Of a DNA stretch of 64,000 nt, positions 9,640 through 63,318 are shown piece by piece. The position numbers and the translations under genes were made by a program. This DNA is from Chiloscyllium plagiosum. Lineage: Eukaryota. Position 1 is the first letter of the stretch; each line of letters begins with the position of its first letter. Below the pieces are notes generated by a model that was given only the letters and a program-made list of their open reading frames with translations, ran no database searches and was not told where the DNA came from. The DNA lies in contig NC_057734.1 in NCBI RefSeq assembly GCF_004010195.1, forward strand, positions 25,032,206 through 25,096,205, given 5' to 3'.

Positions 9640-9859
9640 TCTGAAAAATGTGTTGCTGGAAAAGCACAGGTCAGGCAGCATCCAAGGAGCAGGAGAATCG
9701 ACGTTTCGGGCATAAGCCTTTTTTTCAGGATTCCTGAAGAAGGGCTTATGCCCGAAATATCGATTCTCCTGTTCCCTGGATGGTGCCTGACCTGCTGCGC
9801 TTTTCCAGCAACACATTTTTCAGCTCTGATCTCCAGCATCTGCAGTCCTCACTTTCTCC
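9640..9859. mobile_element. Palindromic Penelope-derived element, family A, with hammerhead-like cores on both strands
   Basis: Inverted arms of about 90 bp centred near 9731; + core CTGAAGAAGGGCTTATGCCCGAAATATC; unpaired tail 9824-9859; flanking CTGTGAAA duplication. Confidence 0.8.
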
Positions 9860-11104
9860 CTGTGAAACTTGTTACCATCACTGGCGCCCCCCCAAATGCA
9901 GGATGCTATAGATCACACTCAATTTGAGAGCACCTTATGATCAATCTCAGAATATGCCAACAGAAAGGAGTTCTACTCCATCAATGTTAAACTTGTGTGG
10001 CTACAGATGCTAGATATTAGAGGTACACAGCAGTTAACCTGAGTGTTGCCATGATGCATACATACTACAGAACTCAAGTTTCTCCTCCTTCTTGGGTCAC
10101 AGAGAGATAGCTTCAGGGAGACTATCCTGTCCCAAATATGACTCGTGTGTGAGCAGAGCAAATATATAACATTATCCAAACTTCCACCAGGAACATAGTA
10201 GAACAGGTTGCAGGCATCCACAAAATGAGGTTTGAATACCTGGACTGCTCCATCACAGCCTTGGAGTACAGGCAAAAAAGGGTGCGCTTCATCATTGAGA
10301 CATATTTGGCCCTTCATCACTGCAGCCAACAAAGTATGCGTGTGTTAGTGTCCGTGTATGTGCCTGTATGGGGGTGTGGGTATTTGTATGTCTTAGGGTG
10401 TGGGGAATATTCTGAATGCAGGGGAAATGGAGGATTAACAGCTATCGTCTAAAAATGAAAATGAGCATAAAATAATTGACCAATAGTTATTCTAATGTAC
10501 ACGTGAACCTGGTTATTTTTGGAGTTCTTGAACATTTCTGCCGCTGAATAAGTGCTTTGTTATCGACATGAGTGTATGCTTGGTATTTTCAGGGTGATCC
10601 TACATTCAAGTATCTTCACTTTACGTTCTTACTCACAAATAGGGTGAAGACAGCAGTTAGTGAGACAGGGCACAAACACTGCATGGCACCAATGCTGTGT
10701 TTCTTTGAAGGCTTCATTCACACATGAAAGCCAAGTGTTGTGCAGAGAAGTCTATTGTTATAAGCAGCAGGTTGGGAGTAATTGTGAAGTATCTCTCTTT
10801 TTTACCCTTCCATCATGAGTTGTGTCTTCAATATTTCAGATACCATCTAGACTGCTAAACTGCTGTAAAATGCTTCAGTGACCTGTAGGACAGCATTTCA
10901 TTTATAAGAACTAGAACTTAGTGCAATATTCCTTGGCAGGCCACTGTGCAATGAGGAAGCATGGACATGTGAACTGCCCAGTGTACACCACCTAGTCTTG
11001 AATGGTAATGTGCTCCCTTGAAAAGCTGATAGAAAGAATGAATCTTTTCCTCCAGAGATGCTTGGATTCATTACTGATTCTGTTTTTCAAGAAGTGGGTC
11101 GATG

Positions 11105-12308
11105 ATAAATCTGATAGAACTCTGCTAAAGGAAGTAATGAGCAGGTTAGACCAAGGAAAGCCAATGGATTTATCTACCTGGATTTCAAGAAGGCTACGGA
11201 GTAAGAAAAGGACCCATGGTTTTAGAGGCAAGATGCTAGTGTGGAAGCTTGGCAGAAAGCAAAGAGTACGGATAACAGGGACTTCTCAGGTTAGTAGTCG
11301 GTGACAAGTGGTTTTCCGCAAGGCTCAATGTTGGGACCACAACTTTTCACTTTATACATTTAATGATCTAGATGAAGGAACTGAGGGCATTCTGGCTATG
11401 TTTGCAGACGATACAAAGATAGGTAGAGGGACAGGTAACATTAATGAGGTGGGGAGGCCGCAGAATGATTTGGACAGGTTAGGTAATGGGCAAAGCAGTG
11501 ACAGATGGACCACAAAGTGGGAAAGTGAGAAGTCATGAATTTTGGTAGTAAGAATAGAGGCATGGACTATTTTCTAAAATGGGGAGAAAATTCAGAAGTC
11601 TGAAATGCAAAAAGACTCGCGAGTTCTAGTCCAGGTTTCTTTCAAGGTAAACTTGCAGGTTGAGTCAGTAGTTAGGAAGGCAAATGCAATGGTGACATGT
11701 ATTTTGAGAGGACTTGAAAAAAAGCAGAGATGTACTTCTGAGGCTATACAAGGCTCTGGTCAGATTATATTTGGAATACTGTGTGCAGTTTTGGGCCCCA
11801 CATCTCAGGAAGTACGTACTGGCCCTGGAGCACATCCAGGAGGAAGTTCACAAAAAAAGGTCCCAGGAATGAAAAGCTTAACATATGAGGAACGTTTGAG
11901 GACTCTGGGTTTATACTTAATGGAGTTTAGAAAGATGAGGGGAATCTAATTAAAACATACAGAAATCTGAATGGCCTGGACAGAGTAAATGTTGGGAAAG
12001 TGCTTCCATTGCTAGAGAGAGACTAGGACTCAAGGGCATAGCTTTAGAGTAAAGGGGAGACCTTTTCGAATGGAGCTAAGGAGAAACTTCTTCAGCCAGA
12101 GAGTGGTGAATCCATGGAATCAATTGCCACAGAAGGCTGTGGAGGGCACGTCATTGAGTATATTTAAGACTGAGATAGAGAGGTTCTTTGGGATCAAGGG
12201 TTACGGGGAGAAAGCCAGAGAATGGGATTGAGAAACTTATCGGCCATGATTGAATGGCAGAGCAGACATGATGGGCTGAATGGCCTAACTTCTGCTTCTA
12301 TGTCTTAT
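11105..12308 (+). mobile_element. CR1 LINE 3' portion (RT and 3'UTR), decayed
   Basis: FNDLDEG..FADDTKIG, YEERLRTLGLY motifs. Confidence 0.9.
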
Positions 12309-12639
12309 TGTGGGGAAGATCTGTGCAGGTCAGGCCTTACCACAAGCCTTGCACATTGATTTAGCCTCAATAACGTGTTGCCCTCAAAATCCAATGGGCT
12401 TTCCTCAGGCAGGCTCAAATCCTCTTCACAGCGATTCCATGTAGTGCTTTCTTCAAATGCTGATACTGGCAAACTTAATTTACAGCTCTTGTGCAATGGC
12501 AGCATCCCCAACTCTGAGCCAGAAGATCGGAGTTCAAGTCCCACATGCCCTAACATGTCCAAACAGATTGATTAAAAATGATTATAATGGAACTTTGATG
12601 CTGTCATCTGAGTCACAGTTCAAGGGCGTGTGATGTCAG

Positions 12640-14139: not shown

Positions 14140-14312
14140 CACCCCATTACAGACTTTCCACTGTCCTTGCCTCACTAACCCATTGTTCAAAATCTATTCC
14201 ATCTAATTTTTACCAGTTTTGATGAAAGACCAGTGACCTGAAGCTTAATGCCTTTTCTCTGCAGATGCTAACACCTTACTTTCTGAGTATTTCCTGTACT
14301 TTCTGCTTCTTT
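14140..14312 (+). mobile_element. Old Penelope-type terminal repeat remnant (family D-like)
   Basis: CAGTTTTGATGAAAGACCAGTGACCTGAAGCTT...CTGCAGATGCT...GAGTATTTCC is a decayed CTGATGA-stem-GAAAC followed by the shared tail. Confidence 0.5.
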
Positions 14313-14722
14313 AAAAGTTTTATTTTATTCCATCTGGAAACCCTGAATATTGCCTAGATGAGGCTGAAAACACTTTTGGCAAGTTGAGAGTTCAGTGTTC
14401 TGGCACTCCATAAAAACACAGCACAGCGAACATCAGCCTTGTACGTGAACTGAAAACATAATTGATTTTCTTAACATATTTAAAATTAGGAAGGGATGGT
14501 TCTAATTAGGTAAGGAAAACTATCTCCAGTAGTTGAGGGTCTAGAATAACAAATATATATGTAAGTGAATGTAAGAAATTTAGGACAGAGAGCAGAAGAA
14601 ATATTTTTCACACAGGGTAGTGAGGTTGTGTTATAACAATATATGCAGGTTCACTTAAATGGACCACTTCTACATTGTAACTTCAATATAACAATATTTT
14701 TCTTTAAATGTACCATACTTAC

Positions 14723-14774
14723 GTGGAAATCCAGCTTGCCTCATCAACTTCTTTTTAGAAAGGACTTTCATTGC
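14723..14774 (-). CDS. CAMKK2: CAMKK2 coding exon 4 (52 nt)
   Basis: ttgcag|AMKVLSKKKLMRQAGFP(R)|gtaagt; contains the ATP-binding lysine (AMK). Confidence 0.96.
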
Positions 14775-16037: not shown

Positions 16038-16370
16038 CGAGGAGAAAGTGAGTCTGCAGATGCTGGAGATCAAAGTTGAAACTTTATTGCTGGAACAGCA
16101 CAGCAGGTCAGGCAGCATCCAGGGAACAGGAGATTCGACGTTTCGGGCACAGGCCGAAACTTCCTGAAGAAGGGCCTGTGCCCGAAACGTCGAATCTCCT
16201 GTTCCCTGGATGCTGCCTGACCTGCTGTGCTGTTCCAGCAATAAAGTTTCAACGTCGGTACTAATGGGTTAGCCTTAAATGCACGCTGTTTATGCTGACT
16301 CACGCATCACTCCTGGTCAATTGGATGCTGCCTGACCTGCTGTGCTGTTCCAGCAATAAAGTTTCAACAC
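16038..16370. mobile_element. Young palindromic Penelope-derived element (family A variant) with intact hammerhead core
   Basis: Perfect 81-bp inverted arms 16075-16155/16173-16253; core CTGAAGA AGGGC CTGT GCCC GAAAC GTC 16164-16191; 14-bp TSD TAATTTTTTATCAT 16024-16037/16371-16384. Confidence 0.88.
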
Positions 16371-19322: not shown

Positions 19323-20135
19323 TGATGTGGAGGAGTCAGTGTTGGACTGGGGTGGACAAAGTTAAAAAAATTACACAACACCAGATTATAGTCCCACAGT
19401 TTTATTTGGAAGCACTAGCTTTTGGGGCGCCACTCTTTTTTCAGGTAGTTGTGGAGTAGGATCATTAGACACAGAATTTATAGTAAAAGATTACAGTGTC
19501 ATGCAAGTAAAATTATATATTTAACAAACCTTGATTGTTGTTAAGTCTTTCATCTTTTAGAATGGGTTACAGGTTTCAGTTCATTAATGTGTAAATCCCA
19601 GAACTTATTTTAAGTCATCTTCTCAAGATAAATTGAGGTTTGGTCTATGGGGTGAATTTGTATTTGCAGAATTATATTTACAGATACATTCTATTTTGCT
19701 CAAAAAATACACAACCAGTAGGCTGTCAATGAGACAGACAATCCACATAATATTTTGCAAATTCCACTTTGGAAATAGAACCAGTCTGAGTCAAGATCGG
19801 GATAAAGACAGACTCACACCTTTAAGGCACTGTCTGAGCTGAGATGTCACCTTTTTTATATAAAAACCTTAATTTACCTTGAGAATGTGACTTAAAAAGT
19901 TCTGGTATTTACATATTAATGAATCAAAACCTGTAACCCATTCTAAAAGATGAAAGACGTAACAACAATTGAGGTTTGTTAAATAGATCATTTTACTTGC
20001 ATGACACTGTAATCTTTTGCCATAAATAGTCTTTTGCTCCTACTCCACAACCACCTGAAGAAGGAGCAGCGCTCCGAAAGCTAGTGTTTCCAAATAAACC
20101 TGTTGGACTATAACCTGGCGTTGTGTGATTTTTAA
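19323..20135. mobile_element. Large inverted-repeat Penelope-derived element, family B
   Basis: Arms of about 280 bp (19360-19641 and 19864-20135) around a 220-bp spacer; core CTGAAGAAGGAGCAGCGCTCCGAAAGCTAG 20055-20084; TSD CACT(G/A)TACATGCA 19310-19322/20136-20148. Confidence 0.82.
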
Positions 20136-20357
20136 CACTATACATGCAGTGAGTTCAAATTCCAGCATCATTACATTTTGTGACAAGAATCATGCTCAGA
20201 CTGAAATCATAGAAGACTAAAAAAATTTTGTGAAGAGAGAACTCAAGAAGACCCACGTCTACATTGCACAAGGGAATCTAATCTAATCTAATCTAAATTA
20301 ACAACTGATCAGCTGAGGTACAAAATGGACTTTAGATAATGACAGATAGTAAATTAA

Positions 20358-26600: not shown

Positions 26601-29130
26601 CATTCTATTGAAAAAACAAATCAGCAAGTAAGATCCATCCAGAATATGAGAGTAAAAGGTCAGGGACATAAAAAGAAACTGCAAGAGATGTTATAAGGAC
26701 TTTATAAGGACATTTTAAAAACAGCTAAAAGGAAACACTGGTCCCTCAAAAGTAGAAAAATAAGGAAATATTATGGAAAATTAGGAAAACCTATTCAACA
26801 AATATTTTGTCTGTCTTTGCAGTAAAATAAAATTACAAACTAGAAATACAGAATAACCAACAGGTTAAAAAGAGGAAAGAAATTAACCTGAGTAGCTAAA
26901 AATTATATTGTAGAAACCGAATTGACTGATCAACCACATCTCCAGGATCAGATCTCTGAGCCTCTATCCATTTAGAAAATAATCTACGCCACTATTCTTC
27001 TGACCAATGTGCATAACCACACAATGTCATACATTGCATTTTATCTATCTGCTACTTCTTTGCCCACTGTCCTAGCCTGTTCAAGTACTTCTGCAGCCTC
27101 ACTGTCTCAACACTACCTGTCCCACCAGCTATCTTTGTGTCCAAAGTTAAAAATCACACAACACCAGGCTATAGTCCAACAGGTTTAATTGGAAGCACCA
27201 GCTTTTGGAGCACTGCTCCTTCATCAGGTGGTTGAAGGAGTGGCACTACGAAAGCTAGTGCTTCCAATTAAACCTGTTGGACTATAACCTGACGTTGTGA
27301 GATTTTTAACTTTGTATACCCCAGTCCAACACAGGCATCTCCAAATCATATCTTTGTGTCATCTGCAAACTTAGTAACAATACCCTTGATTCCTTCATTC
27401 AGATAATTAATGCATAACGTGATTGGTTGTGATCCCAACACAGACTCCTGTGGAGCTCCACTACCTACCATCTACGATCCCGAAAGACTCCTTTATCTCC
27501 ACACTCTGGCTTCTAACAGTCAGCCAATCTTCTACCCACGCTAGTACCCTGTCATTAACACATGGACTCTAATCTTATTTAACAGCCTCCTTGCGGCACT
27601 TTGCCAAAGGCCTTCTGAAAATCCAAATAAAACACATACACTGGCTCTTCTTTGTCTAAATTGCTTGTTACCTCCTCAAAGAATTGCAACAGATTTGTCA
27701 GGGATAACTCCTCCTTGACGAAGTCCTGCTGACTCAGCTGGATTTTATCATGCCATCTCATCTTTAATAATTGACACTAAAATCTTACCAACAACCAATG
27801 TCAGGCTGACTTCATTCTCCCTCCCCTCTTAAATAGGGGCTAAACCTTAAATCTGAACAATGCACTTGGAGAATGTTGGCACAAATGGACAGTCAAGATT
27901 GCTTTATGAGAGGAAAACTCTTTGACAAATTTACTTCTGCTTTCTGAGGACTAACTGGTAGGATAGATAAAGGGGAACTAGGTATAATGGCATTCATTAA
28001 AATGTTATACAAAATTAATGCACAAGAAATCAGCTCATATACTTGAGGTTATATAGCAGTATGGGTAGAAAATTGGTTAAAAGAAAGGAAGTAGAGAATA
28101 GGGACAAAGGGGCATTTTGAAATTGGAAATCTGTAACTAGTAGAGTGCCACAAGGGTGCCCCAAGTATTTACAAACTTTGTTCATGACTTAGGTGAATAG
28201 ACAGAATAATTTACTAAAGTTTGCTTGCAATACAAGTTAAGAGGTCTGCTAGCTCTGAACACAAAGAGGCTACTCTGAGAAACAGGCAAATTAAGTGAAC
28301 TTGCTCAGATGTGGCAGATAGATTATGAAGATTATGAGGTTACTACGTTGCAGCAAAGTAGAAAAGTACACTTTTTAAAAGGCTTGGAACATGTAAAAGT
28401 TCATGTTCAAAGAGATGTGGGCATATTCACACATGGAGCATAAAGTTTGTATCTGCAAGTACAACAGGAAGACAAAAAGCATGTTGGCCTTTATTATGTT
28501 GGGGTATGAGGATTGTGTGATGTAGAAGAATAAGGAAGTCTTACTCCAAGTGACTGGGGCTTTGATGAAATCACATCTGGAGAAACTGTAGTTTTGCTCT
28601 TCTGTTTGGGCCTGTTTCTATGCTGTATGATTCTATATGCAAGGAAGGCTATATTTGTATTAAAGTTGGTATAGTGAACATTCATCAGATTGGTTCCTGT
28701 GGTGAGAGGCTTGTTCTATGGTAAGGTGACTATGCCAGGACTTTTAGTTCCTGGAGTTAAGAAGAATGAGAAGTGATCTCATTGAAACATTTGAGATTAC
28801 AATGTGGTTTGATAGCATATCCTTATCTACTCAACTTCCTAGAACAGGAGCACAGCTTCAAGATAAGGAGCTGATCATTTTGGACTGAGATGAGGAGAAA
28901 ATTCTTCACTCATGAAGTTGTGAACCTCTGGAATTCTCTACTTGAAAGTGTTGGGAATGTCCCATTATTGAATAGTTTAAGACTGTGATGGCAGAATCAA
29001 AGCATGTGGGGGGACAGGCAAGAAAATGGAGTTAAGACTGACAAACCACCATAATTATACTAAATACTGTAGCAGGTTCAAGAACATATATATGGTCTAC
29101 ACTTGCTTCTATTTCATATATTATGTCCTA
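23700..29130. mobile_element. Cluster of nested CR1 LINE fragments in both orientations
   Basis: Repeated RT/APE motifs ([45 protein letters not shown]) on alternating strands. Confidence 0.85.
27142..27348. mobile_element. Palindromic Penelope-derived element, family B, inserted in a CR1
   Basis: Inverted arms of about 80 bp around 27228; 12-bp TSD TATCTTTGTGTC 27130-27141/27349-27360; minus core CTGATGAAGGAGCAGTGCTCCAAAAGC. Confidence 0.85.
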
Positions 29131-29465
29131 ATAAATATCAATTTAATTGTTCAGTGCTCTGAGAGTGAAGTCATTACAGTTTAAACAAAATGGTGAATGT
29201 TTCTTTACTTCACTTTAATTATATTATTGGCATTTACAGCAATCAAAGTTTTATTTTCTGCACTGTCATCTTAACTGAAGCAATTCCTGGATTTGCTTAG
29301 AATACGTATCATGTTAATGATAAATTGTACTTGAGAACTATTCTTTATAACTAGATTTAACCTGAATGTTATTTCCATGAATTTTAAACAGAATCTATAT
29401 ATATCTCATGTAAATACAGTATGGAAGAGCTGTTCTGACACATTAATTCAATAAGATATACCTAC

Positions 29466-29981
29466 CTGTAGATCTGTAATAGACACTCTATGAGATTCCA
29501 CTGTTGGGCGACGAGGCAACCGAGGAGAAGAATGTGGCGATGTAATTGGAGAATATGGCAAAGAAGGATATATATAACGTCCATTAATGGCTGAACTGCT
29601 GGCAGATGACTGAGTTAAATTGGACTTTTCTTGAAGAGATAGCTTCCGATTGGACATACTTAGTTTTATTCTAGGTTGTCGAATATCTTCAGATTGAGCT
29701 CTTTCTAATCTTCCCAAAGCCTTATCGCATGATGATCTGTCCAATTCATTATTCTCTTGCATAGGTTCATCTTCAGGTATTCCTTCCCCATTTTGTCCTA
29801 GGTCGCTGCCTGTGGTACTCTGGTCATATTCAGTCACGATGATGAAAGACTCCATGCCTAAGTCAATAGTTAGGGATGACAGACTACAACTAATATCTGA
29901 CTGCTCCTTGTTGTTAGCACATGGCTCATTTCTGCTTGCAGGCCTTTTGGCAGCAGATCTGCTTGTGACACATGATGACAT
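29466..29981 (-). CDS. CAMKK2: CaM-kinase kinase 2, first coding exon (172 codons; N-terminal regulatory region)
   Basis: MSSCV...LGMESFIIVTE...RKLSLQE...PSLPYSPITSPHSSPRLPRRPTVESHRVSITDLQ matches the CAMKK2 (not CAMKK1) N-terminus; donor CAG|gtagg at 29465; upstream acceptor tttttttctatag| puts the exon start at 30033. Confidence 0.96.
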
Positions 29982-31039
29982 GGTGCTTCACCTTGCTTTA
30001 TCCACATGGATAGGTCACGTGACCTTGAGGTTCCTATAGAAAAAAAATGTAACATACAAACTGGTTAAAATAAACATCTTAATTACATGAATGCACAGAT
30101 GAATTTCCAATGAGTACATAAAACCATGAGTAAAGACTTAAACATCCAGCTACTACAAATTCAGGTGATCAACAAAATAGATTTGGAATCTGCAGTGTTA
30201 AGTATTTACCATCTATACTATATGCCATAAATCCTTTGCAAGCCTTTCTTGAGCAACCTTCATAGAAATATAAAAGAAAAATGAGTAGGCCATCCAGCCC
30301 TTCAAACCCACTCCGCCATTCAATTTGATCAGCTAACTCAGTACCCTGTTCCCACTTTCTCCTATCCCTTTGATCCCTTCTGCCCTAGAATTACATCCAA
30401 CTCCTTTTAGAAAACATTCAATGCTTTGGCTCAAAAGCTATCTGTGATAGACTTGCCAATGCAAAACCTGTACAGTACCAGGATGTAAAATGTAGAAACA
30501 CAGCATCAGTGCTAAAATGGTAATTTTAAAATCTTTAATCCATTCTCTCCGGCACATTAACTACTATTAAGTTAACCATTAATTTTTGAAAATTGCAATA
30601 CGAATATATTAAAGGAAGTCTTTAGAAAATAATTGATGTACACATTTTTAGAAATGCAGAAGCTCTTAATTTAAAATTAAAGATCTTGAAATAAATTATT
30701 GATATATCTTGTGATATAGTTTATTCTTTCTAGTCTGGCAACAATTTCCATAACTTTATGTTTCAAAATTCTCAATCATGAACCATGGCCATATATCATG
30801 AACCAGGGAATATATCACCATAGTGTGGAGTGGGAAAGTGGAGGAGTAGCAGCGATGCTCAAAAAGATCAAATCGTTTAGCATTGATGCTTTGGCCTTTC
30901 TGTTAATCTCCGGAAAAGTGTAGACTATCTGTTTTGGCTCCTACAATCAAGTACCCTGATAACTCAATGCCTGTTTTCACGTATTAAGCATGATTATGGG
31001 TAAGGTACCAGGGGATACCTGGCATTCTTATCCCAGTAC

Positions 31040-34350: not shown

Positions 34351-34572
34351 GGAGCAAATTACTGCAGATGCTGGAATCTATACTGAAAACAAAAAATGCT
34401 GGGAATCACAGTGGGTCAGGCAGCATGTAGAGAAAGCAAGCCAACATTTTGAGTCTACATGATGCTTCATCAGAGCTCTGATGAAGAGTCATTTGTACTT
34501 AAAGTGTTAGTTTGCTCCCTCTCCACAGATGCTGCTTGACCCGCTGTGATTCCCAGCATTTTTTGTTTTCAT
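34351..34572. mobile_element. Palindromic Penelope-derived element, family C
   Basis: Arms of about 95 bp around the perfect 22-bp centre CTTCATCAGAGCTCTGATGAAG (34465-34486); decayed CTGATGA AGAGTC...GACTC GAAAC cores on both strands. Confidence 0.78.
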
Positions 34573-36974
34573 TATTTGAGCTGGAATGTGAATCTGGCTC
34601 ACTGTTGGTGTTATTCTAAATCACATGCTAACTATGCAGGCAACTAAGCTAACTGTTCCCTTAATTCATGTACAGACATGTGTTCGGATTATCAACATTC
34701 TCAACCTTTACCATGTTTCCTACCAGAGTGGATACTTCATACTTCACCAAATTATATTCCCTTTTCCATATTCTTATCTACTCATTTAACTTGTTTATAA
34801 TCCTTTGTAAGCCTCTTTGCATCCTATTCACACGTTACATTCCATCCAACTTTGTGCCAATAGAAGAGTTGGATCCACTACACTTGGTCCCCTCATTCAA
34901 ATCATTTTAAATCGCCAAGTCCAAACGCTGATCTTTCAGTCATCTTTCAAGTTACAGATTTTTAAATTAACAATATAATCTATTCCGACTGTTGCTTTCT
35001 GTTAACTAATGCTTAATTCATATAAATTGATTCAAATGAATGCACAAAGTAGGAACTGGGGTTGACCATATGGACCACTGAGCCTGCTCCATCATTTTAC
35101 CTGACTGAACTGCTTGTATTTCAAATTCCATATTTCATCTACTTCTGATAACCTTGGATTTTCTTGCCTTACAAGAAAATATCTATCTCTGCCTCAATAA
35201 CATTGCTCCCACTGCCTTGTGACTCGTGCTTGAACACTAAGATCCCTCTGCACCTCAAAATTCTGCAGTTGTTCTCCAACTAAGTAATTTAGTTATTCCT
35301 GCCAAAGCAAATAACTTCACATTTTCCCATATTATACTTTATCTGCCAGACTTCTGCCCATTCAATCAATATATCTAAAGACATCTGAAGTATCCTTATC
35401 CTTCTTCCCAACATATGTTCTTACCTCTGTGGGTATTATCTTTGAATTTAGCTACCATGTCTTCCCTTTTCTTAGTTGAATTATTGATGTAAATTGTAAG
35501 TAGATTGAAGCCCCTGCAGAGGTTCCTTCAGGCCTCCATTTATCATGCTCTGCCAATCAATCAAAGACTTATTTATTTATTATTTATGTTTTCTGTCAGC
35601 CTGCGAAAAATGTGACAATGCTAATGAATTACCCCCAGCATTTATTTTCATCAATAACCTGTGATGTGGCACATAATAACATAAGAAATAGGAATAGTGG
35701 GCCATCTGGCCTGTCAAGCCTGCTTCACCATTCAATAACATCATGGCTTATCTTTTCGTGGACTCATCTCCATTTACCCATCCGCTCACCATAACCCTTA
35801 ATTCCTTTACTGTTCAAAAATATGTCTTTGCCTTAAAAATATTCAATGAATTAGCCTCAACTGCTTCACTGGCCAGGGAATTTCACAAATTCACAACCCT
35901 TTGGATGAAGACGCTTCTCCTCAACTCAGTCCTAAATTCCAATGAGTACTTTCCCAGTCTACTCAATCTCTCCTCATAAGCCAACCCTCTCAATTTTGGA
36001 ATCAACCTCCTCTGCACCCCCTCCAGTGCCAGTACATCCTTTCTCAAGGAGGCCAAAACTGTACACAGTACTGCAGATGTGGTCTCACTAGCTATACAAC
36101 TGCAGCATAAACTCATTTTTAAACTCCATCCCTCTATCAATGAAGGACAACATTCTATTTGCCTTCTTAATTAATTGCTGCATCTGCAAACTAACATTTT
36201 ATAATTCATGCACAAGGACTGACATCAGTGGTGGGCAAGTTATTGGAGGGGATTTTGAGGGACAAAATTTACATGTATTTGGAAAGTCAAGGACTGATTA
36301 GGGATAGTCAACATGGCTTTGTGCATGGGATATCATGTCTCACTAACTTGATTGAGTTTTAAAGAAGTAACAAAGAGGATTGATGAGTGCAAAGCGGTGG
36401 ACGGTAACTAAATGGATTTCAGTAAGGCGTTTGAATGGTTAACAAGGTTAGATCTTATGGAATATGGAGTGAACTAGCCATTTGGATAAAGACATTGGCT
36501 TGAAGAAAGGAGACAGCGGGTGGTAGTGGAAGGTTGCTTTTTAGATTGGAGGCCTGTGACTAGCGGTGTGCCGCAATGTACGGTGCTGGGTCCACTACTT
36601 TTTGTCCTTTATATAAATGATTTGGGTGTGGATATAGAAGGTATGGTTAGGAAGTTTGCAGATGACACCAAAATTGGTGGTGTAGTGGACAGCAAAGTAG
36701 GCTACTTCAAGGTGCAACAGGACCTTGATCAGATGGGCCGATGGACCAAGGAGTGGCAGATGGAGTTTAATTTAGATAAATATGAAATGCTAGATTTTGG
36801 TAGAGTAAATCAGGGCAGGACTTCGACACTTAATAGTAAGGTCCTGGGGAGTGTTGCTGAAGAAAGAAACCTTGGAGTGCAGATTCATAGTTCCTTGAAA
36901 ATGGATTCACAGGTAGATAGAGTAGTGAAGGCGGCGTTTGGTACACTTGCTTTTATTGGTCAGTGCATTGAGTA

Positions 36975-39547: not shown

Positions 39548-39695
39548 AGTTAAAAATCACATAACACCAGGTGATTTGATGAAGGAGCATCGCTCCGAAA
39601 GCTAGCGTGCTTCCAATTAAACCTGTTGGACTATAACCTGGTGTTGTGTGATTTTTTAACTTTATACACCCCAGTCCAACACCGGCATCTCCGAA
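39548..39695. mobile_element. Penelope-derived family B element with short inverted 5' arm, inserted in a CR1
   Basis: TTGATGAAGGAGCATCGCTCCGAAAGCTAGCGTGCTTCC; 13-bp TSD TCTTTAGTGATAA 39535-39547/39696-39708. Confidence 0.82.
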
Positions 39696-40122
39696 TCTTT
39701 AGTGATAATAATCGTTTCTAGGTCCTCACCTGCCTTGCCTCCTTGTCATCAATTATTAGCATGTTAATTAATGTCTTAATTTACCATTTACTCATTTCCT
39801 ATGTTTAAACCAGTCTTCTTATCCTCTAAAGGGCCAATGTTTACCTTAGCCACTTTTTTCCATTTTATATATTTGCAGAAATTTTTTCTGTTTTTATATT
39901 CTGAGTTAGTTTACTCTCATAATCCATCTTACCTTTTTCTTTAGCTTTTTTTTGTGACTCTGTGTTGATCTTGAAAGGTTTCCCAATCCCCTAGTTTCCC
40001 ACTAATGTTCGCCACTTTGAATGCATTACCTTATCAAATGTCTTGAAATAACACGCTCTCCGTTATCATGCTACTCCTTTAAAGACTCTCAAATTAAATA
40101 AACATGATTTAAGCTGGTGGCT

Positions 40123-49814: not shown

Positions 49815-52800
49815 TTGCAGGCTACGTCCAGGCCAGTCATTCTGGCTGCAGACTTCAACTGTATCATTGATGCAGATGGACGATCCGGCAGGGACACAGT
49901 AAACTGGACACCACGTCCAGAGTCCTAATGGAAATGGTCAAAGATGCCAAGCTGCACGATGTCTTCAGCAAACTGAAGAGAGCACAGTGTAGATACACCT
50001 GGTCACGGGCAGACGGGTCTATACGCTCAAGGATAGATTACATGTTTGTGTCCCGAATGTTCTCGGTCAGATCCACCGACGTCAAGCCGGTGTTCTTTTC
50101 TGACCACTGTCTCCTGCTAGCCGATTGTCACCTACAGGATGAGCAGCGGGCTGGTAAGGGAACGTGGAAGCTGAACACCAAGCTGTTGACCCCGGGAAAC
50201 ACTGAGGAGCTCAGGAGGGATTACGCAGGTTGGAGAATTGTGAAGTCCCTGTTTCAGTAACCAGCGGACTGGTGGGAAACAGTAAAAGGGAACATCAAGC
50301 GATTCTTCATCCTCAAAAGGTGTTCAGGAGGCAAGAGAGAGGTGGGGTAAACTGTCCTAACTCCAGGAAAGTATGCAGAACCTGTTCCTGCTGCAGACAA
50401 TGGGGGTCGATGTCACGGAGGACCTCCAGGAGGTGAAGGGCAGGCAAGCCTCGCTCTTTGCCTCAGAAGCCTCCAAGATAATCTTCCGGTACAGGGTCCA
50501 CTCCGTGGAGCAGGACGAGACGTGCTCACGTTTCTTCTTCCAGAAGATGCACAAAGAGAGCTTTGTGCTCAGCAGCCTGAAGGAAAAAGATGGCTCAGTA
50601 ACGTCATCTCAGGCTGATGTCATGAGGATCAGCAAATCCTTCTATGCCAGTCTGTATGACTCGAAGCCAACTGACAGCACGGCCTCCCAGTCGTTCCTAT
50701 CCTCTATCACGGAGGTCTTAAACGACAGATGGGAGAGGCTGGACCAGCCGCTATCTCTGGACGAGCTGACCAAGGCCCTCGAGTCCTTCGAAAAGAATAA
50801 AACTTCCAGAAGTGACAGCTTACCGGTCGAGCTCTATTCTACTCTGTGGGACTCGTTTGGCCAGGACCTGCTGGAGGTGTGGGTCAGTATGCTTCTGGCA
50901 GGTACCATGAGTGAAACCATGAGGAAAGGCATCATCACCCTCATCTACGAGCAGAAGGGGGAGAGGGAGAAAATCAGAAATTGGAGACCAATCTCACTAT
51001 TAAATGCAGATTACAAAATCTTGGCAAAGGTTATTGCCAACCGGGTCAGGTCCATTCTGGAATCAGTGATCCACCCTGACCAAACCTGTGCTGTACCAGG
51101 CAGGAAGATCGCTGAGAGTCTCACAATCCTCAGAGATACGATTGCCTATGTGTAGGACAGGGGGTTGGACACCTGCATCATCAGCCTGGACAAGGAGAAA
51201 GCCTTTGACAGGACATCACATATGTATATGAGAGATGTTCTCTCCAAAATGGGCTTTGGGGAGGAAATCTGTAACTGGATCAGACTGTTCTACATCAACA
51301 TTGTCAGTGCAGTCTCAATCAATGGTGGGAATCAGATAGCTTCCCAGTCAGATCTGGAGTCAGGCAGGGCTGCCCTCTTTCTCCTGCCTCGTTTGTGTCT
51401 GCATAGAGCCATTTGCCGAGTCCATAAGGATGGATGCAAGCCTGAGAGAGATGACTATTCCTGGCAGCAGGGGTCTGCAGGTTAACACCTCCCTGTACAT
51501 GGATTATGTCGCCGTTTTGTGCACAGACTCTTGTGCATATGTGACCAGTTTGAATGGGCCTTGGAGGCCAAGGTAATCCGAGGCAAGAGAAAGGCCATGC
51601 TCTTCGGGAACTGGGCCGACCAATCCTTCATCTCCTTCACCGTCAGGACTGACCACCTGAAGGTGCTAGGTGTTTGGTTCGGAGGGGCTGGGGCTTGCGC
51701 CAAGTCTTGGGGGGAGCGTATCAAGAAAGTGAGGCAGAAACTGGGCAGATGGAAGCTATGGTCACTCTCCATCACGGGAAAAAAACCTGGTCATCAGGCA
51801 TAAGGCACTGTCAGTGTTGTTATACATGGCACAGGTCTGGCCTATTCCCAGAACCTGTGCTATTACAGTCACCCGGGCCATCTTCCATTTTGTATGGAGA
51901 TCAAAGATGGCCAGGGTCCGAAGGGACTCGATGTACAAAGCTCTGGGCAACAGAGGAAAAAACACACCAAATGACACCCTCACCCTGATGGCCACCTTTG
52001 TGTGTGGATCCCCGGTATGCAAACACAAAATGTCACTACATACGGAGGTTCTACCTGCCCCCGGTGTTGCGAAGGATGGGCGTGGCCTTGCTGCCGCGGA
52101 ACGCTCCAAGTAGTTGGACCGTTCCATATCACCTGTCCTTCGTAGAGAAATTTATGAAGAAAAACACCTTTGACCACAAGTCCATCAGGAAATGGTCAGC
52201 ATGTAGTGTCCTTGAGACCCTTCGGGAAAGGAGAGGGCGGATCCTGTCAAGCGGTTCCCTGGGCAGACTGTCAGTCATTTGGCAGAATGCCTCATCACCA
52301 GAACTTTCCAATAAGCACCAAGACATGGCTTGGCTGGTGGTGAGAAGGACTCTGCCTGTGAGATCCTTTATGCATGCCCAGACTCTCTGCCACACTGCAC
52401 GCTGCCCTCGAAGCGGCTGTGGAAAGGACGAGACTGTCACACACACCTCCTTTTGGAATGTGCCTACGCAAAGGAAGTCTGCAGATGAATGCAGTGGTGT
52501 TTGTCGAGGTTCGTCCCATGCAGCTCCATGATGCAAAACTCCGTGCTCTACGGTCTGTTCCCCGGGATGCATACGGAGACGAACATCAGCTGTGCCTACA
52601 GGATCATCAACTCGGTGAAAGATGCTCTTTGGTCTGTCTGAAACCTGTTAATCTTCCAGCTGAAGGAGTTGACCCCGACTGAGTGTTGCGGACTGGCACA
52701 TTCCAAGGTCCAGGACAACGTGTTGAGGGACGTGCTGAAGCTTGGGGCAGCTGCCGCCAAGGCATGGTGGGGAAAGACCACTGTGTAACATCTGCCAAAG

Positions 52801-58293: not shown

Positions 58294-58780
58294 TGGCATG
58301 GTGGCTCAATGGTTAGCACTGCTACCTCACAGCCCTAGGGAAGAAAGTGAGGATTGCAGATGCTGGAGATCAGAGCTGAAAATGTGCTGCTGGAAAAGCG
58401 CAGCAGGTCAGGCAGCATCCAAGGAACAGGAGAATCGATGTGAAGGGCTTATGCCCGAAACGTCGATTCTCCTGTTTCTTGGATGCTGCCTGACCTGTTG
58501 TGCTTTTTCAGCAACACATTTTCAGCTCACAGCCCTAGGGACCCAAGTTTGATTCCAATTTTGGGCAAGCCTCTTGGTGCTCAGGTTTTCCTCCCACAGT
58601 CCAAAGATGCAGATTAGGTGGATTGGCCATGCTAAGTTGCCCATAGAGTCCAGGAACATGCAAGCTAGATAGATTAGCCATGGGAAATGCAGAGTTACCA
58701 GGGTAAGGTGGGTCTGGGTAGGATACTCTTCAGAGAGTCAATGTGGACTCAATGAGCTTCCACACTATAGGATTCTGTGG
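58294..58780 (+). mobile_element. tRNA-derived shark SINE interrupted by a family A palindrome
   Basis: Head GGCATGGTGGCTCAATGGTTAGCAC resumes after 58540. Confidence 0.8.
58341..58525. mobile_element. Palindromic Penelope-derived element, family A
   Basis: Inverted arms, TGAAGGGCTTATGCCCGAAACGTCGATTCTCC; 15-bp TSD CTCACAGCCCTAGGG 58326-58340/58526-58540. Confidence 0.85.
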
Positions 58781-59583
58781 TCCACCAACAGGGCACTGTT
58801 TTGAAGAAAGTAACATCTGTAAAATGCACACACCAACTTACCAAGACGTCTTTTTCAGTACTTCCCAAACTTTTGCTCTCTATCACCCAAATGAAGGGCA
58901 GCAAGTGCATCAGAGCTCTATCACCCTCCAAGACTCTTCCCAAGTCACACAGCATCCTGACTTGGAAATTTATCACTGTTCCTTCAATTCCACCAGCTCA
59001 AAATTCATCAAACTTCTATCCTCCAGTACCATGTAGGTATCCTTAGCACGTTAGGGTTGTATGGGTCACATCGAGGCACTTGGTGACTCAAGGGCAGTTA
59101 GAAATGGGCAATAAATCAGGTCTTGTCAGCAATACCGACATCTGAAATTTTAAAAAACTGCTAAGTGAATAATGTCCGCAGACTGAGGGGAATCGAACTA
59201 CGCAACAAAGCAACCCCATTCTAACAAACACTAGCTTGTATCAATATGCATGGAGGGAACGTTGGAGAACGAACAAGCTGAGACAAGTACTGCCTTCTCG
59301 GAGGTAACGTGGACGATCGATGTCGACAGATAGAATCAAAATGCAGAATAGCAAAATGTCACTACGAAAATCACGTTTTCTCCACCCTGACATGTTAACG
59401 ACTGAGCCATGATGACTTACAACAAAAATAATTCCTAAAAATGTACACGCCCACACAAGGTCCAAAATCAAGCATTCTACGCCCACACCTCCTCCCCCCA
59501 CCTCCCATCCACATACTTACATCGGCCGTAACAAAAATTAACTTGGATTTTACAGTAAAATAAACAGGAGGCCAGGATGATCT

Positions 59584-59704
59584 AACAAAAACCGAAAGAA
59601 CTGCGGATGCTGTAAATCAGAAACAAAAACAGAAACTGCTGGAAAAACTCAGCAATTCTGGCAGCATCTGTGGAGAGAAATTAGAATGAACGTTCCTGGT
59701 CCAC
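59584..59704 (-). mobile_element. Penelope-type terminal repeat half copy (family D)
   Basis: Reverse complement of ...TCTCTCCACAGATGCTGCCAGA...CCAGCA...CAGCATCCGCAGTTCTT, as at 9140-9230. Confidence 0.7.
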
Positions 59705-60195
59705 TAATTCTTCCTCATAATAGTCTCTGATTTCTCTCCAGGGACTGCGGCTGGCAAGCTTTTTGTATGTGTGCAGTTCCCTGTATGACACTCTGCAAGA
59801 AGCCAGACCGAAAAACTACCCAGGCCTAATGCGGGCTGCCCCCAGTAAATAACACACCTCACTTTCACGCTTATGTTGCGATACAAATGTCAAAACTAAA
59901 GTAGAACCCCCACCATCAGTAAACGCCCACTCGCGTTTCCGACACCTCCGTCTCCTATTCCAACAATAACAAGTCTGTTTGAAGCTACGGCTGGATCCCA
60001 CCAAACTGGGGAAAAGATGTTGCAAAACTGCAAGTCCTCTGTTCATGCCAAATATTATTGTATTTGAAAATAATTCCGTATCTTGATTGAGGCGTGGAGA
60101 TGTGGGAGAGAGGGCGGCAGCTTCATTGTTAAATTGGGGTGCTTGCTCTTTCAATGTAACAATGAAGGCTCTAAAATCAGCAACGATTCAAGTAC

Positions 60196-60420
60196 CTTCA
60201 TGACAGTCGCTCGATTCCACGTCCTGAAACTACAGCAACATGTCCGGCCTCTCGGTGCCAGAGGCTCAGGAGCTCGAACACAGTCCGAGACACCGTCAAC
60301 CTCTCGCGCTCCTACTGCGGCTGCGCACAACCGTCCACCGAGAAGGGGCGGGCCACCCGGTCTGACGGACACCCGTATTAGCCAATCGGGATCGTAATGT
60401 TGTGCCGCCCACGAGACAAA
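60196..60420 (-). promoter_or_regulatory. CAMKK2: CpG-rich putative CAMKK2 promoter plus candidate non-coding exon 1
   Basis: Strongest non-repeat CpG-dense patch in the window; GC box GGGGCGGGCC 60345-60354, TGACG half-CRE 60363-60367, AGCCAATCG 60380-60388; candidate donor GAAG|gtact at 60196/60195. Confidence 0.6.
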
Positions 60421-60580
60421 AGTGATAAAATGATGTTCGAACCGGTACAGACAGGAGGTGATTCGCGTGGAATATATGAGGTTATTTCGAGGGTTTGAAG
60501 TGTTTTGCTTCAGCTCTTCCTCAACTAAATTCAAATTTTACCATCTATCAAGATGGAATTCATATGGGTATATCAGGGTT

Positions 60581-60619
60581 ACTAGTCCAGTTACATTATC
60601 ACAATGTAACTGGACTAGT
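60581..60619. repeat. Perfect 17-bp inverted repeat with 5-nt loop
   Basis: ACTAGTCCAGTTACATT-ATCAC-AATGTAACTGGACTAGT. Confidence 0.9.
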
Positions 60620-62877
60620 TTCCATAACCTCACGTTTTACACGATTTATTCTACCATTTTGTCGTCCAATAACCTGTCCACAGCAATTAGAAGCTACTTA
60701 ACCTCCTCCCATCTTGCATTCTCACCTAGCTTGGTATCATTACCGAACTAGGGCATATTAACTTCTCTCCATCTAAATCACTAAGATTGTAAATGGCACA
60801 GCACTAGTCGCAGCCTGCCAACTGGAAAATGTCCCCTTCTGTAGCAAAAAATTTGTTTCATGGTTCATTACTAAAAGCTATATTCGGGATTTGATTGAAA
60901 AGTAAATATAATTAAAACCGTTTATCATACAAGTGGTAATGAAACACAATGGGTAGCCCACTTCTTGACGTCTTGGTAGAGCCAGGTTGTATTGTGTTAT
61001 CTCTGTAAAAGCTTGAAATACAAACTATTCATTTGAATACAAACTAGTCACCTAGCAAAATGAATGTGTTTAAGATAAAATAATTTTACAAAAATTGATT
61101 TTATTTATTGTTACATGTATCTTGCAAAATATAGTGAAAAGCATTGTATAGTGTTGCCACTCTGGCACCATCTTAAAACATAGAAAAATAAACCAAAACA
61201 GAATATAAAGGCAGAAAAATTAAGAACTAAGGGGTCCAACTTTACAGTACTTCTGGTTAAGTACTCTGTTGTAGGTCATGGGCCAGGTGGCCAGGCATGA
61301 CTCCTCCACTACACCGCAAGAACGAAAGTTGCCATTCTTTGACCACGAGCCCTTGCTGGATCTTGCCAATGCCACCAGGTACTAAACAGGCCCAAAACTT
61401 GATTCTGCCGCTGCCATTAGTCCACAATAGGCCCACTTTGCCAATGCAACAGTTGCTAATGCCACAAAGTCTCGTACAGTGCCCATCCTCCTCCATGCCC
61501 TTCTATTTGAAAGGGAGGGTGACGACTTTAGTGCATATGTAAGAAAAGTTTTGATAAGGTGGATTTGGTTACAATATTTCTTATCTTGGGTCTGGCCAGA
61601 ATTAGGGGACATGGTTTTAAAATTAAGGTTTGATCTTTCAGAACTAGCATGTTTACCTCTGTTCATATTTCATGTTTGTAACCATTCCAAAGCGTGCCAT
61701 AAGGTAAGGTAGGGTTAGAGGTTTTTATCTACATGGTTGCTGACAGAAGTAAGCAAATGAGTTCAGGAACTGACAGAGGTAGTTGTTGCTTTACTTTAGT
61801 CATCTAACCAGATTTAGTGAGCAAATAAAACATAGTGGTCAGTTAGGCTTGCACTCAAATCTCTGCCGTGTTTTCATTCCCTATGAGAATCACTCCTGTC
61901 TGCGACTCTGAGAGGCCAGGGCTTAATTCTGCTTCTAAAGGTTCTTATACTTACTTTAGCTAATCCTTTCCATTCTGTATACTTTCAAAAGTTAGAATCA
62001 TACAGCAGGCTTGTTCAACAAACAGCCCACAGACCTTATCATGGCCTAAACCATTCTTACAACCCATTTTTCTATTCCTAGACCTTGTATTCCTTTCTTT
62101 CCCCATATATTTAATCAACTTGTCAGTAGTCTTTTACAGGTTTCCAAAACACCCAGTCTTCAGATTTATTAGTACTCTTTGTAACAAGTCTCCAGCCTCT
62201 CCTTTTCGCCTATATCATCCTTAATTTTCTCAGGTAAGTCACAGATTAATTTTTCTAGCTGAATGTTTGACCTAAATAGAATACATTTTGTTGAACATTT
62301 TGAATTTTTAAAACCCTCACACTTTATTACAACTTCATGTCTATTTGCTTCCAAACTCTCCCCTTAACTATTAAGTTTTTGGTTTATGATTGGAATATGT
62401 AATTTTAAACTTAATATGAAATTGAATATTATGATCACTATTTCTCAATGGATTTTTAAAATAATGACATTAATAATTATCCCTACCTCATGGCACAATG
62501 CTATATTTAAAATAGCTTCATCCATATTTGGTTCCACCCATTGCTGCAGGAATCTGTTACAAGTCAACTTCTGGACCAACTTTGCCAATCTGATTGGCTC
62601 AGTCCAGTCTAAGAAGATTAAGAGCATGAAAGTCCACCTCAACAGTGACATTGTTTTTAAACGAGAAATTACTGAAACTTGTTACAATGCACTGTTAACC
62701 CTTACAATTACTTAGGGACCTATAAACCCTCAACAGTGTTTTTTGAACTTTGCTATTCCTAATGTTAAACCATGATAATTCTATTTCCTAATTTTCTGGA
62801 CCAATAACACACGTTGTTTTGCTAATCGTATATATGTGCATAAAGCTGAATGAAAATGACTATTTTTTAAACAAAAC

Positions 62878-63228
62878 AGCATGCACTGGTCAACCATAAG
62901 TGCAACATGAAGGTAGAAAACAAAAAGTTGGAAAAACTTGTGAATCTGGAATGCCCTTTGCAGGTGATTAAGTCTCAAAACTGCAAACTGGAGCTCACGT
63001 TCAACAAATCTGAACAGCATGCTGAATATTGTGGATCAAGGACTGAACCTTGTGCAGTTTGTGGTTGCAATGTTCTGGTCAAAGACAAACGTACAACACA
63101 TTTCCTGTGGCAAAGATGTGGAGAAAACAACTGTGTCAAACCTAGATCTGAGTATCACTTTGTTGATGATATTGGGACTTGGTTTGAAGCCAACCATTTG
63201 GGATTCTTCATTGGGCTGAAGAGAAGCA
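62878..63228 (+). pseudogene. TRAFD1/XAF1-family TRAF-type zinc-finger pseudogene fragment (closest to TRAFD1)
   Basis: HALVNHKCNMKVENKKLEKLVNLECPLQVIKSQNCKLELTFNKSEQHAEYCGSRTEPCAVCGCNVLVKD resembles the TRAFD1 segment C-K-C...ECPLR..CQHC.LEL....EHEDYCGARTELC..CGRNVLVKD; several Zn ligands lost, apparent frameshift after VKD. Confidence 0.75.
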
Positions 63229-63318
63229 TAGATTAGAGTGGTGCTGGAAAAGCACAGCAGGTCAGGCAGCATCCGAGGAGCAGGGAATTTGACGTTTCGG
63301 GCAAAAGCCCTTCATCAA
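63229..63318 (-). mobile_element. Penelope-derived family A half copy
   Basis: Minus strand TTGATGAAGGGCTTTTGCCCGAAACGTC...GATGCTGCCTGACCTGCTG. Confidence 0.78.

What the first reader, a model, noticed from the sequence alone, without database searches (positions are those of the whole stretch)
9640..63318. Multi-family system of fold-back, hammerhead-ribozyme-bearing non-autonomous retroelements
Seen: about 11 short elements in at least 4 sequence families (A: 9640, 16038, 58341, 63229; B: 19323, 27142, 39548; C: 34351; D: 9101, 14140, 59584). Most carry an intact or decayed CTGANGA-A-[stem II]-GAAA(C/G)-NUH core. Stem II differs between families yet keeps pairing (GGGC/GCCC, GGAGC/GCTCC, GAGTC/GACTC), which is the covariation expected of an RNA structure. 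Most copies are inverted repeats with the core near the axis, one unpaired tail, and variable 8-16 bp TSDs. Established: CUGANGA/GAAA/NUH is the hammerhead catalytic core, and Penelope-like elements carry minimal hammerheads in terminal repeats that often insert inverted. Inference: these are non-coding Penelope derivatives mobilised in trans, present at roughly one copy per 6 kb here, and easily mis-annotated as DNA MITEs or SINEs.
Basis: partly seen in the sequence, partly recalled or inferred. Interest (0 to 1): 0.82.

Follow-up and report, generated by a model that had tools for sequence, protein, structure and literature searches.

The report
Hammerhead-tipped stubs of Penelope retroelements
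The eleven short inserts are real, but they are the cut-off ends of four protein-coding Penelope-type jumping genes rather than a separate family, and the sharp point where most of them stop likely marks where the jumping gene's RNA begins.

Summary
All 11 copies are real: 7 fold-backs, 4 solos; 14140 is a decayed remnant at 14212-14312. Only 2 keep a strictly intact minimal hammerhead. All three stems covary between families.

The 'non-autonomous family' reading mostly fails. Each repeat is the terminal repeat (pLTR) of a Penelope-like element: RT and GIY-YIG fragments lie just upstream in longer copies, with a Neptune-type zinc-finger linker. Fold-back axes differ in 20 of 21 young copies, so they form at insertion. 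One ORF-deleted 224-nt unit does recur at 40 places, but not in this window.

Two regularities stand out:
- 20 of 21 fold-backs carry exactly one tail.
- 5' ends pile up about 30-32 nt behind a TATA-like hexamer, at -4 in A and C and -8 in B (D -7 to -2), not at the ribozyme cut site.

Best model: priming from both ends of a staggered cut at the two known internal RT start sites, running to the RNA's 5' end. A fifth family lacks this edge, and RNA reads did not test it. The scan found these elements many times before in this genome. Known kind; the mechanism is a useful lead.

The parts
9097..9225 (+). Family D solo pLTR end with tail; core CTGAAGA at 9101, stem II disrupted; no TSD found
   Evidence: (E 8.8e-16)
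9641..9859 (.). Family A fold-back: minus arm 9641-9730 (-2..+89), plus arm 9730-9857 (-4..+123, with tail); core at 9734; TSD 8 bp (9627, 9860)
14205..14325 (+).
16038..16370 (.). Young family A compound insertion: tailed minus arm 16038-16155, plus arm 16161-16253 with intact minimal hammerhead at 16164, captured piece, partial second arm 16322-16368; TSD 14 bp (16024, 16371)
16254..16321 (+). 68-nt piece of other genomic sequence captured inside the TSD; 97% identical to a locus on C8 with no A arm within 300 nt
19323..20140 (.). Long family B fold-back: tailed minus arm (-170..+121), plus arm (-165..about +85) with intact minimal hammerhead at 20055; keeps the TATAAA-like box; TSD 8 bp (19315, 20141)
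27142..27348 (.). Family B fold-back: minus arm from -5, tailed plus arm +4..+121; TSD 12 bp
34351..34574 (.). Family C fold-back, both arms start at -4 (axis on AGCT); tail on the minus arm; both cores decayed; no TSD found
39548..39697 (.). Family B fold-back with short minus arm (+58..+87) and tailed plus arm (+1..+121); TSD 13 bp
58341..58528 (.). Family A fold-back, tail on the minus arm, core lost at the axis; TSD 16 bp
59583..59720 (-). Family D solo with tail, decayed core; no TSD found
   Evidence: (E 8.4e-29)
63237..63318 (-). Family A solo without tail (+1..+81), first core letter lost; no TSD found

Best explanation
These inserts are the hammerhead-bearing terminal repeats of four protein-coding Penelope-like elements, likely laid down as short, promoterless cDNAs, one per end of a staggered cut, each running from an internal start site to what is likely the RNA's 5' end.

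Shown: each unit is the pLTR behind a GIY-YIG/RT frame; 3' ends fall at two sites about 35 nt apart; fold-backs are head-to-head with one tail and near-unique axes; 5' ends have a sharp edge.

Inferred steps, with odds:
(1) The element protein cuts both strands about 15 nt apart, leaving 3' overhangs (0.75).
(2) Each end primes its own cDNA, one at the outer site (about +125, tail included) and one at the inner site (about +90). Two cDNAs joined by microhomology give a fold-back; one gives a solo (0.7).
(3) The edge is the transcription start, 30-32 nt behind a TATA-like box in the pLTR, so the stubs are 'strong-stop' cDNAs from the first pLTR of the RNA. Longer and partial-tandem copies need a template jump or a longer RNA (0.5).
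(4) The hammerhead is kept by selection in the source elements but does not set the ends of these copies and is likely inert in them (0.8).
For: Partners:
- A: the repeat reads into a long ORF in L047, L050, L097, L098. L098 has GIY-YIG (Pfam 22.8 bits, cut-off 22.6; 27.2 in L099) followed by the arm at 96.7% identity to the window copy. RT passes Pfam RVT_1. The tail-to-ORF pattern has 1302 matches against 0 in the control.
- B: its own endonuclease lies 410-678 nt upstream in 4 of 45 sampled arms.
- C: EN or RT upstream on the same strand in 13 of 19 long loci.
- D: 8 of 11 RT/EN loci end in the D unit.

Made anew at insertion: 20 distinct axes among 21 fold-backs (about 18 if a point variant and a mirror join are merged).

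Two start sites: 3' ends cluster at +81..96 and +120..128 (the upper group is capped by the 128-nt references, one search gives +124..126). 18 of 19 two-site fold-backs use one of each (p 3.8e-5 against 0.5). In 6 of 21 the tail-less arm holds 50 nt or more that the tailed arm lacks, so it is no copy of it. TSDs are 13-17 bp in 16 of 20 gap-free fold-backs. The green anole element nicks and extends both strands and starts at two sites that bound the tail (PMC11167929).

5' edge:
- A: 45 of 100 listed rows end at -7..-3, 4 at -33..-8, 22 run through (by eye).
- B: 41 of 100 at -11..-6, 1 intermediate, 42 through (by eye).
- C: 7 of 18 short copies at -4. D: 28 of 30 at -7..+2.
- Unbiased sample, A: 44 of 155 arms at -7..-1, 3 in the next 7 nt upstream, 3 at the cut site.
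- Hexamer start: A -36, B -38/-40, C -35. B's edge shifts with the hexamer and not with stem I, which ends at -3.
- 6 of 15 listed joints in public contigs leave from -3..-5.
Against: - Family E has a TATAAA at -53 but no edge: 90 of 100 rows run through and the other 10 are scattered (by eye). The rule is not general.
- A's box (TTTTAT) is a poor TATA. D's is variable, and the script caught it in only 1 of 3 copies. CATAAA and TATAAA are also poly(A)-signal variants (recalled).
- No excess of an extra G from a copied cap: 3 of 17 A copies ending at -4 (by eye).
- RNA reads showed no pile-up of starts or ends, and 96% ran on into unlike flank.
- In vitro, the anole enzyme showed no strand difference in start site, so the one-tail rule is not explained by that assay.
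- The D. virilis promoter is TATA-less and internal (PMC2377424).
- No gap-free full-length ORF was recovered; L097-L102 hold gaps or breaks.
- In the sample, 21 of 153 A arms have EN/RT upstream on the same strand, but 11 have it on the opposite strand and 7 downstream; inverted and tandem copies explain part of this.
- The rows are exact-pattern matches on the first contigs, so they favour well-kept copies.
Confidence: 0.78

Rival explanations
1. One reading: the short units are non-autonomous families with their own source copies, transcribed as short or circular RNAs and mobilised in trans, like retrozymes.
For: One ORF-deleting junction recurs at 40 places on many contigs, often in 224-nt tandems. 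68 head-to-tail junctions exist against 0 in the control. Retrozymes are argued to be non-autonomous derivatives of these elements (bioRxiv 10.64898/2026.07.22.740005). A fixed 5' edge is what a short source RNA would also give.
Against: The 68 junctions are nearly all different. Axes are near-unique. Unit sequence equals the pLTR of coding copies. Short copies lack the upstream box. None of the 11 window copies is a tandem of whole units or carries the shared junction. Almost no 5' ends lie at the cut site.
Confidence: 0.13
2. The 5' edge is not a transcription start but a processed or paused end: poly(A)-type cleavage after a CA behind an AATAAA-like hexamer, or a reverse transcriptase pause after the hammerhead.
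For: CATAAA and TATAAA are poly(A)-signal variants, and the spacing of about 25 nt to a CA fits (recalled). In A, as many copies end at -3 as at -4 (17 and 17). There is no cap-G excess. E keeps the hexamer without an edge.
Against: A's hexamer is no poly(A) signal. B's edge lies 5 nt beyond stem I, against a structure-set pause. Stem I in A, C and D ends exactly at -4. A TATA plus initiator in a pLTR is reported for a rotifer element (PMC3846280). No poly(A) pile-up was listed at that place, in a weak test.
Confidence: 0.35
3. Fold-backs arise by self-priming: one cDNA snaps back (or an antisense RNA self-primes) and is copied, and the tail is left by endonuclease resolution.
For: Proposed for rotifer elements from palindromes at the junction (PMC3846280); the tail is ascribed to endonuclease resolution (PMC8557442). 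It would give exactly one tail. Perfect palindromic axes occur (AGCT in C; GGAATTCC in A).
Against: In 6 of 21 fold-backs the tail-less arm holds 50-297 nt that the tailed arm lacks, and the tail cannot come from the tail-less arm. Solos end at either site with their own TSD.
Confidence: 0.15
4. DNA MITEs with long terminal inverted repeats.
For: About 200-bp palindromes at high copy number.
Against: One-sided tail, TSDs of 6-17 bp, many solos, continuity with RT/GIY-YIG frames.
Confidence: 0.01

Closest known systems
Insertions of endonuclease-positive Penelope-like elements: pLTR, adjacent inverted 5'-truncated copy, 30-40 bp tail (PMC8557442 and PMC3846280, passages)
   Same: Head-to-head inversion, tail at one end, variable TSDs, partial tandems, microhomology joins; RT then C-terminal GIY-YIG; zinc-finger linker as described for Neptune and Nematis.
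   Different: Most copies here are only 80-250 bp and stop at a sharp 5' edge; about one per 5.4 kb. The edge's tie to an upstream hexamer and the one-tail count were not seen in the passages read.
Minimal hammerheads of metazoan Penelope-like elements (PMC4209133: abstract, Results, Discussion)
   Same: No loop 3, palindromic 15.2-16.2, extra base between 9 and 10.1, G10.1-C11.1, short stem I; mostly single motifs ascribed to truncated elements, some 100-700 bp apart on opposite strands.
   Different: Stem II is shorter in A-D (4-5 bp against the 7-8 bp given for Schistosoma). B cuts after CUA. Older A subfamilies carry a U-U mismatch in stem I (38 of 55 arms).
Poseidon element of the green anole, in vitro (PMC11167929, main text)
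   Same: Two internal RT start sites that bound the tail; both strands nicked and extended; uncleaved RNA is the main substrate.
   Different: Its ORF starts at stem II, as an ATG there suggests for E, whereas A's first in-frame ATG lies behind the tail. No strand preference of start sites was seen in vitro, while fold-backs here use one of each.
Non-LTR retrozymes of animals (PMC7229834, passages; bioRxiv 10.64898/2026.07.22.740005, parts 1-3 of 5)
   Same: Type I hammerhead, pLTR origin; the 224-nt family A unit found elsewhere in this genome fits.
   Different: The 11 window copies are solos or inversions, not tandems with a hammerhead in each unit.

Membership tests
Endonuclease-positive Penelope-like element | RT followed by C-terminal GIY-YIG, linked to the repeat | tested here: met
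   A. B. C: 13 of 19 loci. D: 8 of 11 loci. B, C and D rest on tblastn with A-derived and sample-derived pieces, not on Pfam.
Endonuclease-positive Penelope-like element | pLTR from partial tandems (repeat at both ORF ends) | tested here: met
   A only: tail runs into the ORF start, 1302 matches; structures. The ORF start was not examined for B, C, D.
Endonuclease-positive Penelope-like element | Inverted 5'-truncated copy and 30-40 bp tail at one end | tested here: met
   20 of 21 young A fold-backs and 7 of 7 window fold-backs
Endonuclease-positive Penelope-like element | One intact ORF of an active copy | tested here: inconclusive
   Six long loci all held gaps or breaks; no search for an intact copy was run
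Neptune (or Nematis) clade | Zinc-finger-like linker between RT and endonuclease | tested here: met
   C-x4-C-x2-C in A, B, D and C; not seen in the E fragment
Neptune (or Nematis) clade | Placement in the RT tree with named references | not tested
   No named reference proteins were fetched and no tree was built
Minimal type I hammerhead | Core boxes, G10.1-C11.1, palindromic 15.2-16.2, stems I and II with covariation | tested here: met
   84 arms chosen on core letters alone; Watson-Crick pairing 0.77 against 0.37 (maximum 0.54) in 2000 shuffles of 32 family-balanced arms. Copies within a family are related, so this reflects about four independent lineages.
Minimal type I hammerhead | Self-cleavage after the NUH | not testable with these tools
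   No pile-up of read ends; few 5' ends at the cut site
Non-LTR retrozyme | Tandem units, each with a full hammerhead | tested here: not met
   None of the 11 window copies; met by the 224-nt unit elsewhere
Non-LTR retrozyme | Circular or unit-length RNA | not testable with these tools
   Only polyA single-cell raw reads were on offer
Non-autonomous family with its own source copy | Shared junctions or structure that the coding element lacks | tested here: not met
   20 distinct axes of 21; 68 mostly distinct head-to-tail junctions
MITE | Inverted repeats reaching both ends and a fixed short TSD | tested here: not met
   One-sided tail; TSDs 6-17 bp
SINE | Internal polymerase III boxes and a simple-repeat 3' tail | not tested
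   No box scan was run; no simple-repeat tail is visible

The most novel reading that the evidence does not exclude
In Neptune-type elements the RNA starts 4-8 nt before the hammerhead, from a TATA-type promoter in the pLTR. The dimeric enzyme primes one cDNA from each end of its cut, at two fixed sites near the RNA's 5' end. Most events abort as strong-stop stubs and full copies need a template jump, a retrovirus-like transfer step not described for this class. The several hundred thousand stubs in this genome would then be a base-resolution record of the cycle, and the one-tail rule its signature.
Probability: 0.35. Interest if true: 0.68.

Novelty: new member of a known kind. Interest (0 to 1): 0.38.

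Why it matters
As a discovery of a new element class it does not hold: the architecture and the minimal hammerhead are in print for Penelope-like elements, and this scan has noted them many times in this genome.

It matters in two smaller ways. First, annotation: roughly 650,000 stubs by extrapolation from about 1 Mb (rough) would be misfiled as MITEs, SINEs or miRNA hairpins; Rfam's only window hits under E 0.01 were miRNA models on two of these fold-backs. Second, mechanism: the papers read call the origin of the inverted and tail structures unresolved. A young family with over 12,000 exact core matches gives countable rules (one tail per fold-back, 13-17 bp TSDs, a hexamer-linked 5' edge) that the existing in vitro system can test directly.

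Tried and rejected
- Rfam: no hammerhead model matched the window.
- Pfam GIY-YIG searched over the genome gave one weak hit. The partner elements were found by following the tail instead.
- Circular 140-nt unit: I first read the axis as a circle junction. Rejected, because the sequence behind the tail is the ORF start and the 68 junctions vary.
- Ends set by ribozyme cleavage: 3 of 155 A, 3 of 45 B and 2 of 48 D arms start within 3 nt of the cut site.
- Cap-derived extra G: not enriched in A (3 of 17).
- Splice acceptor at the edge: A and B have no AG there.
- Family E as a positive test of the hexamer rule: it showed no edge.
- First search for the C partner was swamped by a 1-kb repeat inserted in the query; it was redone with the 3' part.
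- RNA: no RNA holder was listed in the index. Laying two raw runs and two contig sets gave 1078 reads in X20 and 0 in X21 (no test), with no start or end pile-up. The raw runs carry the species label of the best-matching DNA contigs and may be a relative.
- Folding single arms gave no unusual stability (z -0.09 to -1.63). The dimer fold was not computed.
- PDB search with the RT piece found nothing under E 0.4. Atlas search gave only GIY-YIG clusters.
- Rows dropped: 10 of 209 clusters were hits to the flank part of the E query and were left out, as were the 10 true E clusters, for the count of 189. The C8 block holds local duplications that may overcount slightly.
- Not in print: searches listed no paper on these elements in sharks, or on strong-stop or twin priming in this class. 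Repbase, Dfam and most subscription papers were not searchable, and no supplements were read (those of the 2026 preprint and of PMC11167929 may bear on shark families and on 5' ends).

Full report
Setting. The window is G000:C25:25032206-25096205 of a 3.56-Gb assembly, 40% GC, with a TRAFD1-type zinc-finger fragment at 62871-63233. That it is shark-like is my inference from recalled repeat content and from earlier notes; it was not determined. Positions below are relative to the C of CTGA (= 0).

Observation. All 11 sites hold members: 7 head-to-head fold-backs, each with one tail, and 4 solos. 14140 is a decayed D copy at 14212-14312. TSDs of 8-16 bp were found for 7 of 11. In five arbitrary 200-kb blocks plus the window, 1,027,981 non-N bases, there are 189 A-D clusters, 53 of them inverted, after leaving out 20 E clusters. 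A strict minimal-hammerhead descriptor gives 13 hits there against 0 in reversed sequence and 0 in five shuffles; two are in the window, at 16164 and 20055. So the motif is real, but most copies are decayed.

The ribozyme. A reads ATTC-CTGAAGA-A-GGGC..GCCC-GAAA-CG-TC/GAAT, B CAC-CTGATGA-A-GGAGC..GCTCC-GAAA-GC-TA/GTG, C AGCT-CTGATGA-A-GAGTC..GACTC-GAAA-CG-TT/AGCT, and D has stem I AGTT/AACT. Among 84 arms picked on core letters alone, pairs swap between families in all three stems. Pairing is 0.77 against 0.37 in shuffles, from about four independent lineages. This matches the published minimal hammerhead, which needs a dimer and cleaves weakly (PMC4209133). In a fold-back transcript both stem II and the cut site lie in a near-perfect hairpin of -182 kcal/mol, so activity there is unlikely (inference).

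The partners. Following A's tail showed that it runs into an ORF start (1302 matches, 0 in control). In L098 a GIY-YIG frame is followed by the hammerhead, arm and tail, 96.7% identical to the window copy; an RT piece in L061 passes RVT_1. B has its own endonuclease 410-678 nt upstream in 4 of 45 arms, and window copy 19323 is an 818-bp fold-back of that element's end. C has EN or RT upstream in 13 of 19 long loci, and 8 of 11 RT/EN loci end in D. All four show a C-x4-C-x2-C linker, which PMC8557442 gives as a mark of Neptune and Nematis. No tree was built and no gap-free ORF was recovered.

Not a master family. Forty young A loci taken in chromosome order, from an exact core pattern with 12,028 matches, gave 21 fold-backs and 19 direct copies. 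The 21 axes are 20 distinct strings, with one microhomology join recurring three to four times. Head-to-tail junctions (68, control 0) are nearly all different. That is retrozyme-like, but no window copy carries it.

Two start sites and the one-tail rule. 3' ends of A cluster near +90 and +125. The anole enzyme starts at two internal sites that bound the tail, and nicks and extends both strands (PMC11167929). Here 20 of 21 fold-backs have exactly one tail, and 18 of 19 that end at the two sites use one of each (p 3.8e-5). In 6 of 21 the tail-less arm carries 50 nt or more that the tailed arm lacks, which a snap-back copy cannot give. TSDs are 13-17 bp in 16 of 20 gap-free fold-backs; in direct copies the best match is 6-16 bp, absent in two. 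Two 3' overhangs, each priming a cDNA, give exactly TSD, reversed arm, sense arm, TSD (inference). The in vitro work saw no strand preference, so the coordination is unexplained by it. The 68-nt piece inside copy 16038, 97% identical to a C8 locus without the element, shows template jumping during insertion.

The 5' edge. In A, 45 of 100 listed rows end at -7..-3, only 4 at -33..-8, and 22 run through (by eye). In B, 41 of 100 end at -11..-6, 1 is intermediate and 42 run through (by eye). In C, 7 of 18 short copies end at -4; in D, 28 of 30 end at -7..+2. The unbiased sample agrees: for A, 44 of 155 arms at the edge, 3 in the next 7 nt, 3 at the cut site. Long copies carry an AT-rich hexamer at -36 (A, TTTTAT), -38/-40 (B, TATAAA), -35 (C, CATAAA) and, variably, about -34 (D). 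That is 30-32 nt before an A in a YCA context, which fits TATA-to-start spacing and the initiator consensus (both recalled). B's edge follows the hexamer and not stem I. A TATA plus initiator in a pLTR is reported for a rotifer element (PMC3846280).

Against the edge model. Family E has the hexamer at -53 and no edge (90 of 100 run through). A's box is weak, and there is no cap-G excess. The D. virilis promoter is TATA-less (PMC2377424). The hexamers could be poly(A) signals. RNA reads gave no pile-up, and 96% ran into unlike flank, as passive read-through would. I put the start-site reading at 0.5.

Comparison and verdict. It works like, and by the tested features is, the truncated insertion product of endonuclease-positive Penelope-like elements with minimal hammerheads. 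It fails the tests for retrozyme, MITE and independent non-autonomous family. Earlier notes of this scan, seen only after my reading was written down (notes 47, 57), report the same stubs, de novo axes and edge. The hexamer spacing, the exception in E and the one-tail count were not in the few lines shown. Papers seen: bioRxiv 10.64898/2026.07.22.740005 parts 1-3 of 5; PMC11167929 parts 1-2 of 4; PMC4209133 abstract, Results and Discussion; passages of PMC8557442, PMC3846280, PMC2377424 and PMC7229834 (12 of 24); no supplements. New member of a known kind, interest 0.38.

Noticed in passing
G000, 40 places, e.g. L228-L239: An ORF-deleted 224-nt family A unit with a fixed junction, often in tandem with a hammerhead in each unit; a retrozyme candidate.
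   Followed up: partly
L163 (C15:30009084-30010079), L199 (C30:20168760 onward); 8328 pattern matches: A fifth family, E, with a longer bulged stem II, an ATG at the start of stem II, no zinc-finger linker seen and no 5' edge; absent from the window.
   Followed up: partly
window 16254-16321: 68 nt of unrelated genomic sequence captured inside a family A insertion, 97% identical to G000:C8:55700125-55700192.
   Followed up: yes
family A unit, from about +47: A short upstream frame of about 42 codons starts in the arm and overlaps the start region of the main ORF in another frame.
   Followed up: no
L097:4162-5295 and L098:6507-7652: The A protein has a long Thr/Pro/Ala-rich region with tandem 12-residue repeats behind its N-terminal domain, next to assembly gaps.
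   Followed up: no
older A subfamilies: 38 of 55 arms have a U-U mismatch in stem I where the young subfamily has a U-A pair.
   Followed up: no
G000:C15:30101771-30102845 (L173): An abundant 1-kb repeat inserted in the 3' region of a family C element; not identified.
   Followed up: no
window 29448-29987 minus; 62871-63233 plus: A kinase-kinase-like N-terminal exon (CaMKK-like by recall, no Pfam hit) and a TRAFD1/XAF1 zinc-finger fragment that looks processed or decayed.
   Followed up: no
window 49871-52531 plus; many CR1-like pieces throughout: A broken LINE with endonuclease and RT frames in a GC-rich stretch, and numerous CR1-like fragments (labels recalled).
   Followed up: no
L064, L099, L102 flanks: Retrovirus-like env and pol fragments next to family A copies (labels recalled).
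   Followed up: no
G000:C8:50003845-50188325: Several hits recur at regular offsets, suggesting local segmental duplication in this block.
   Followed up: no
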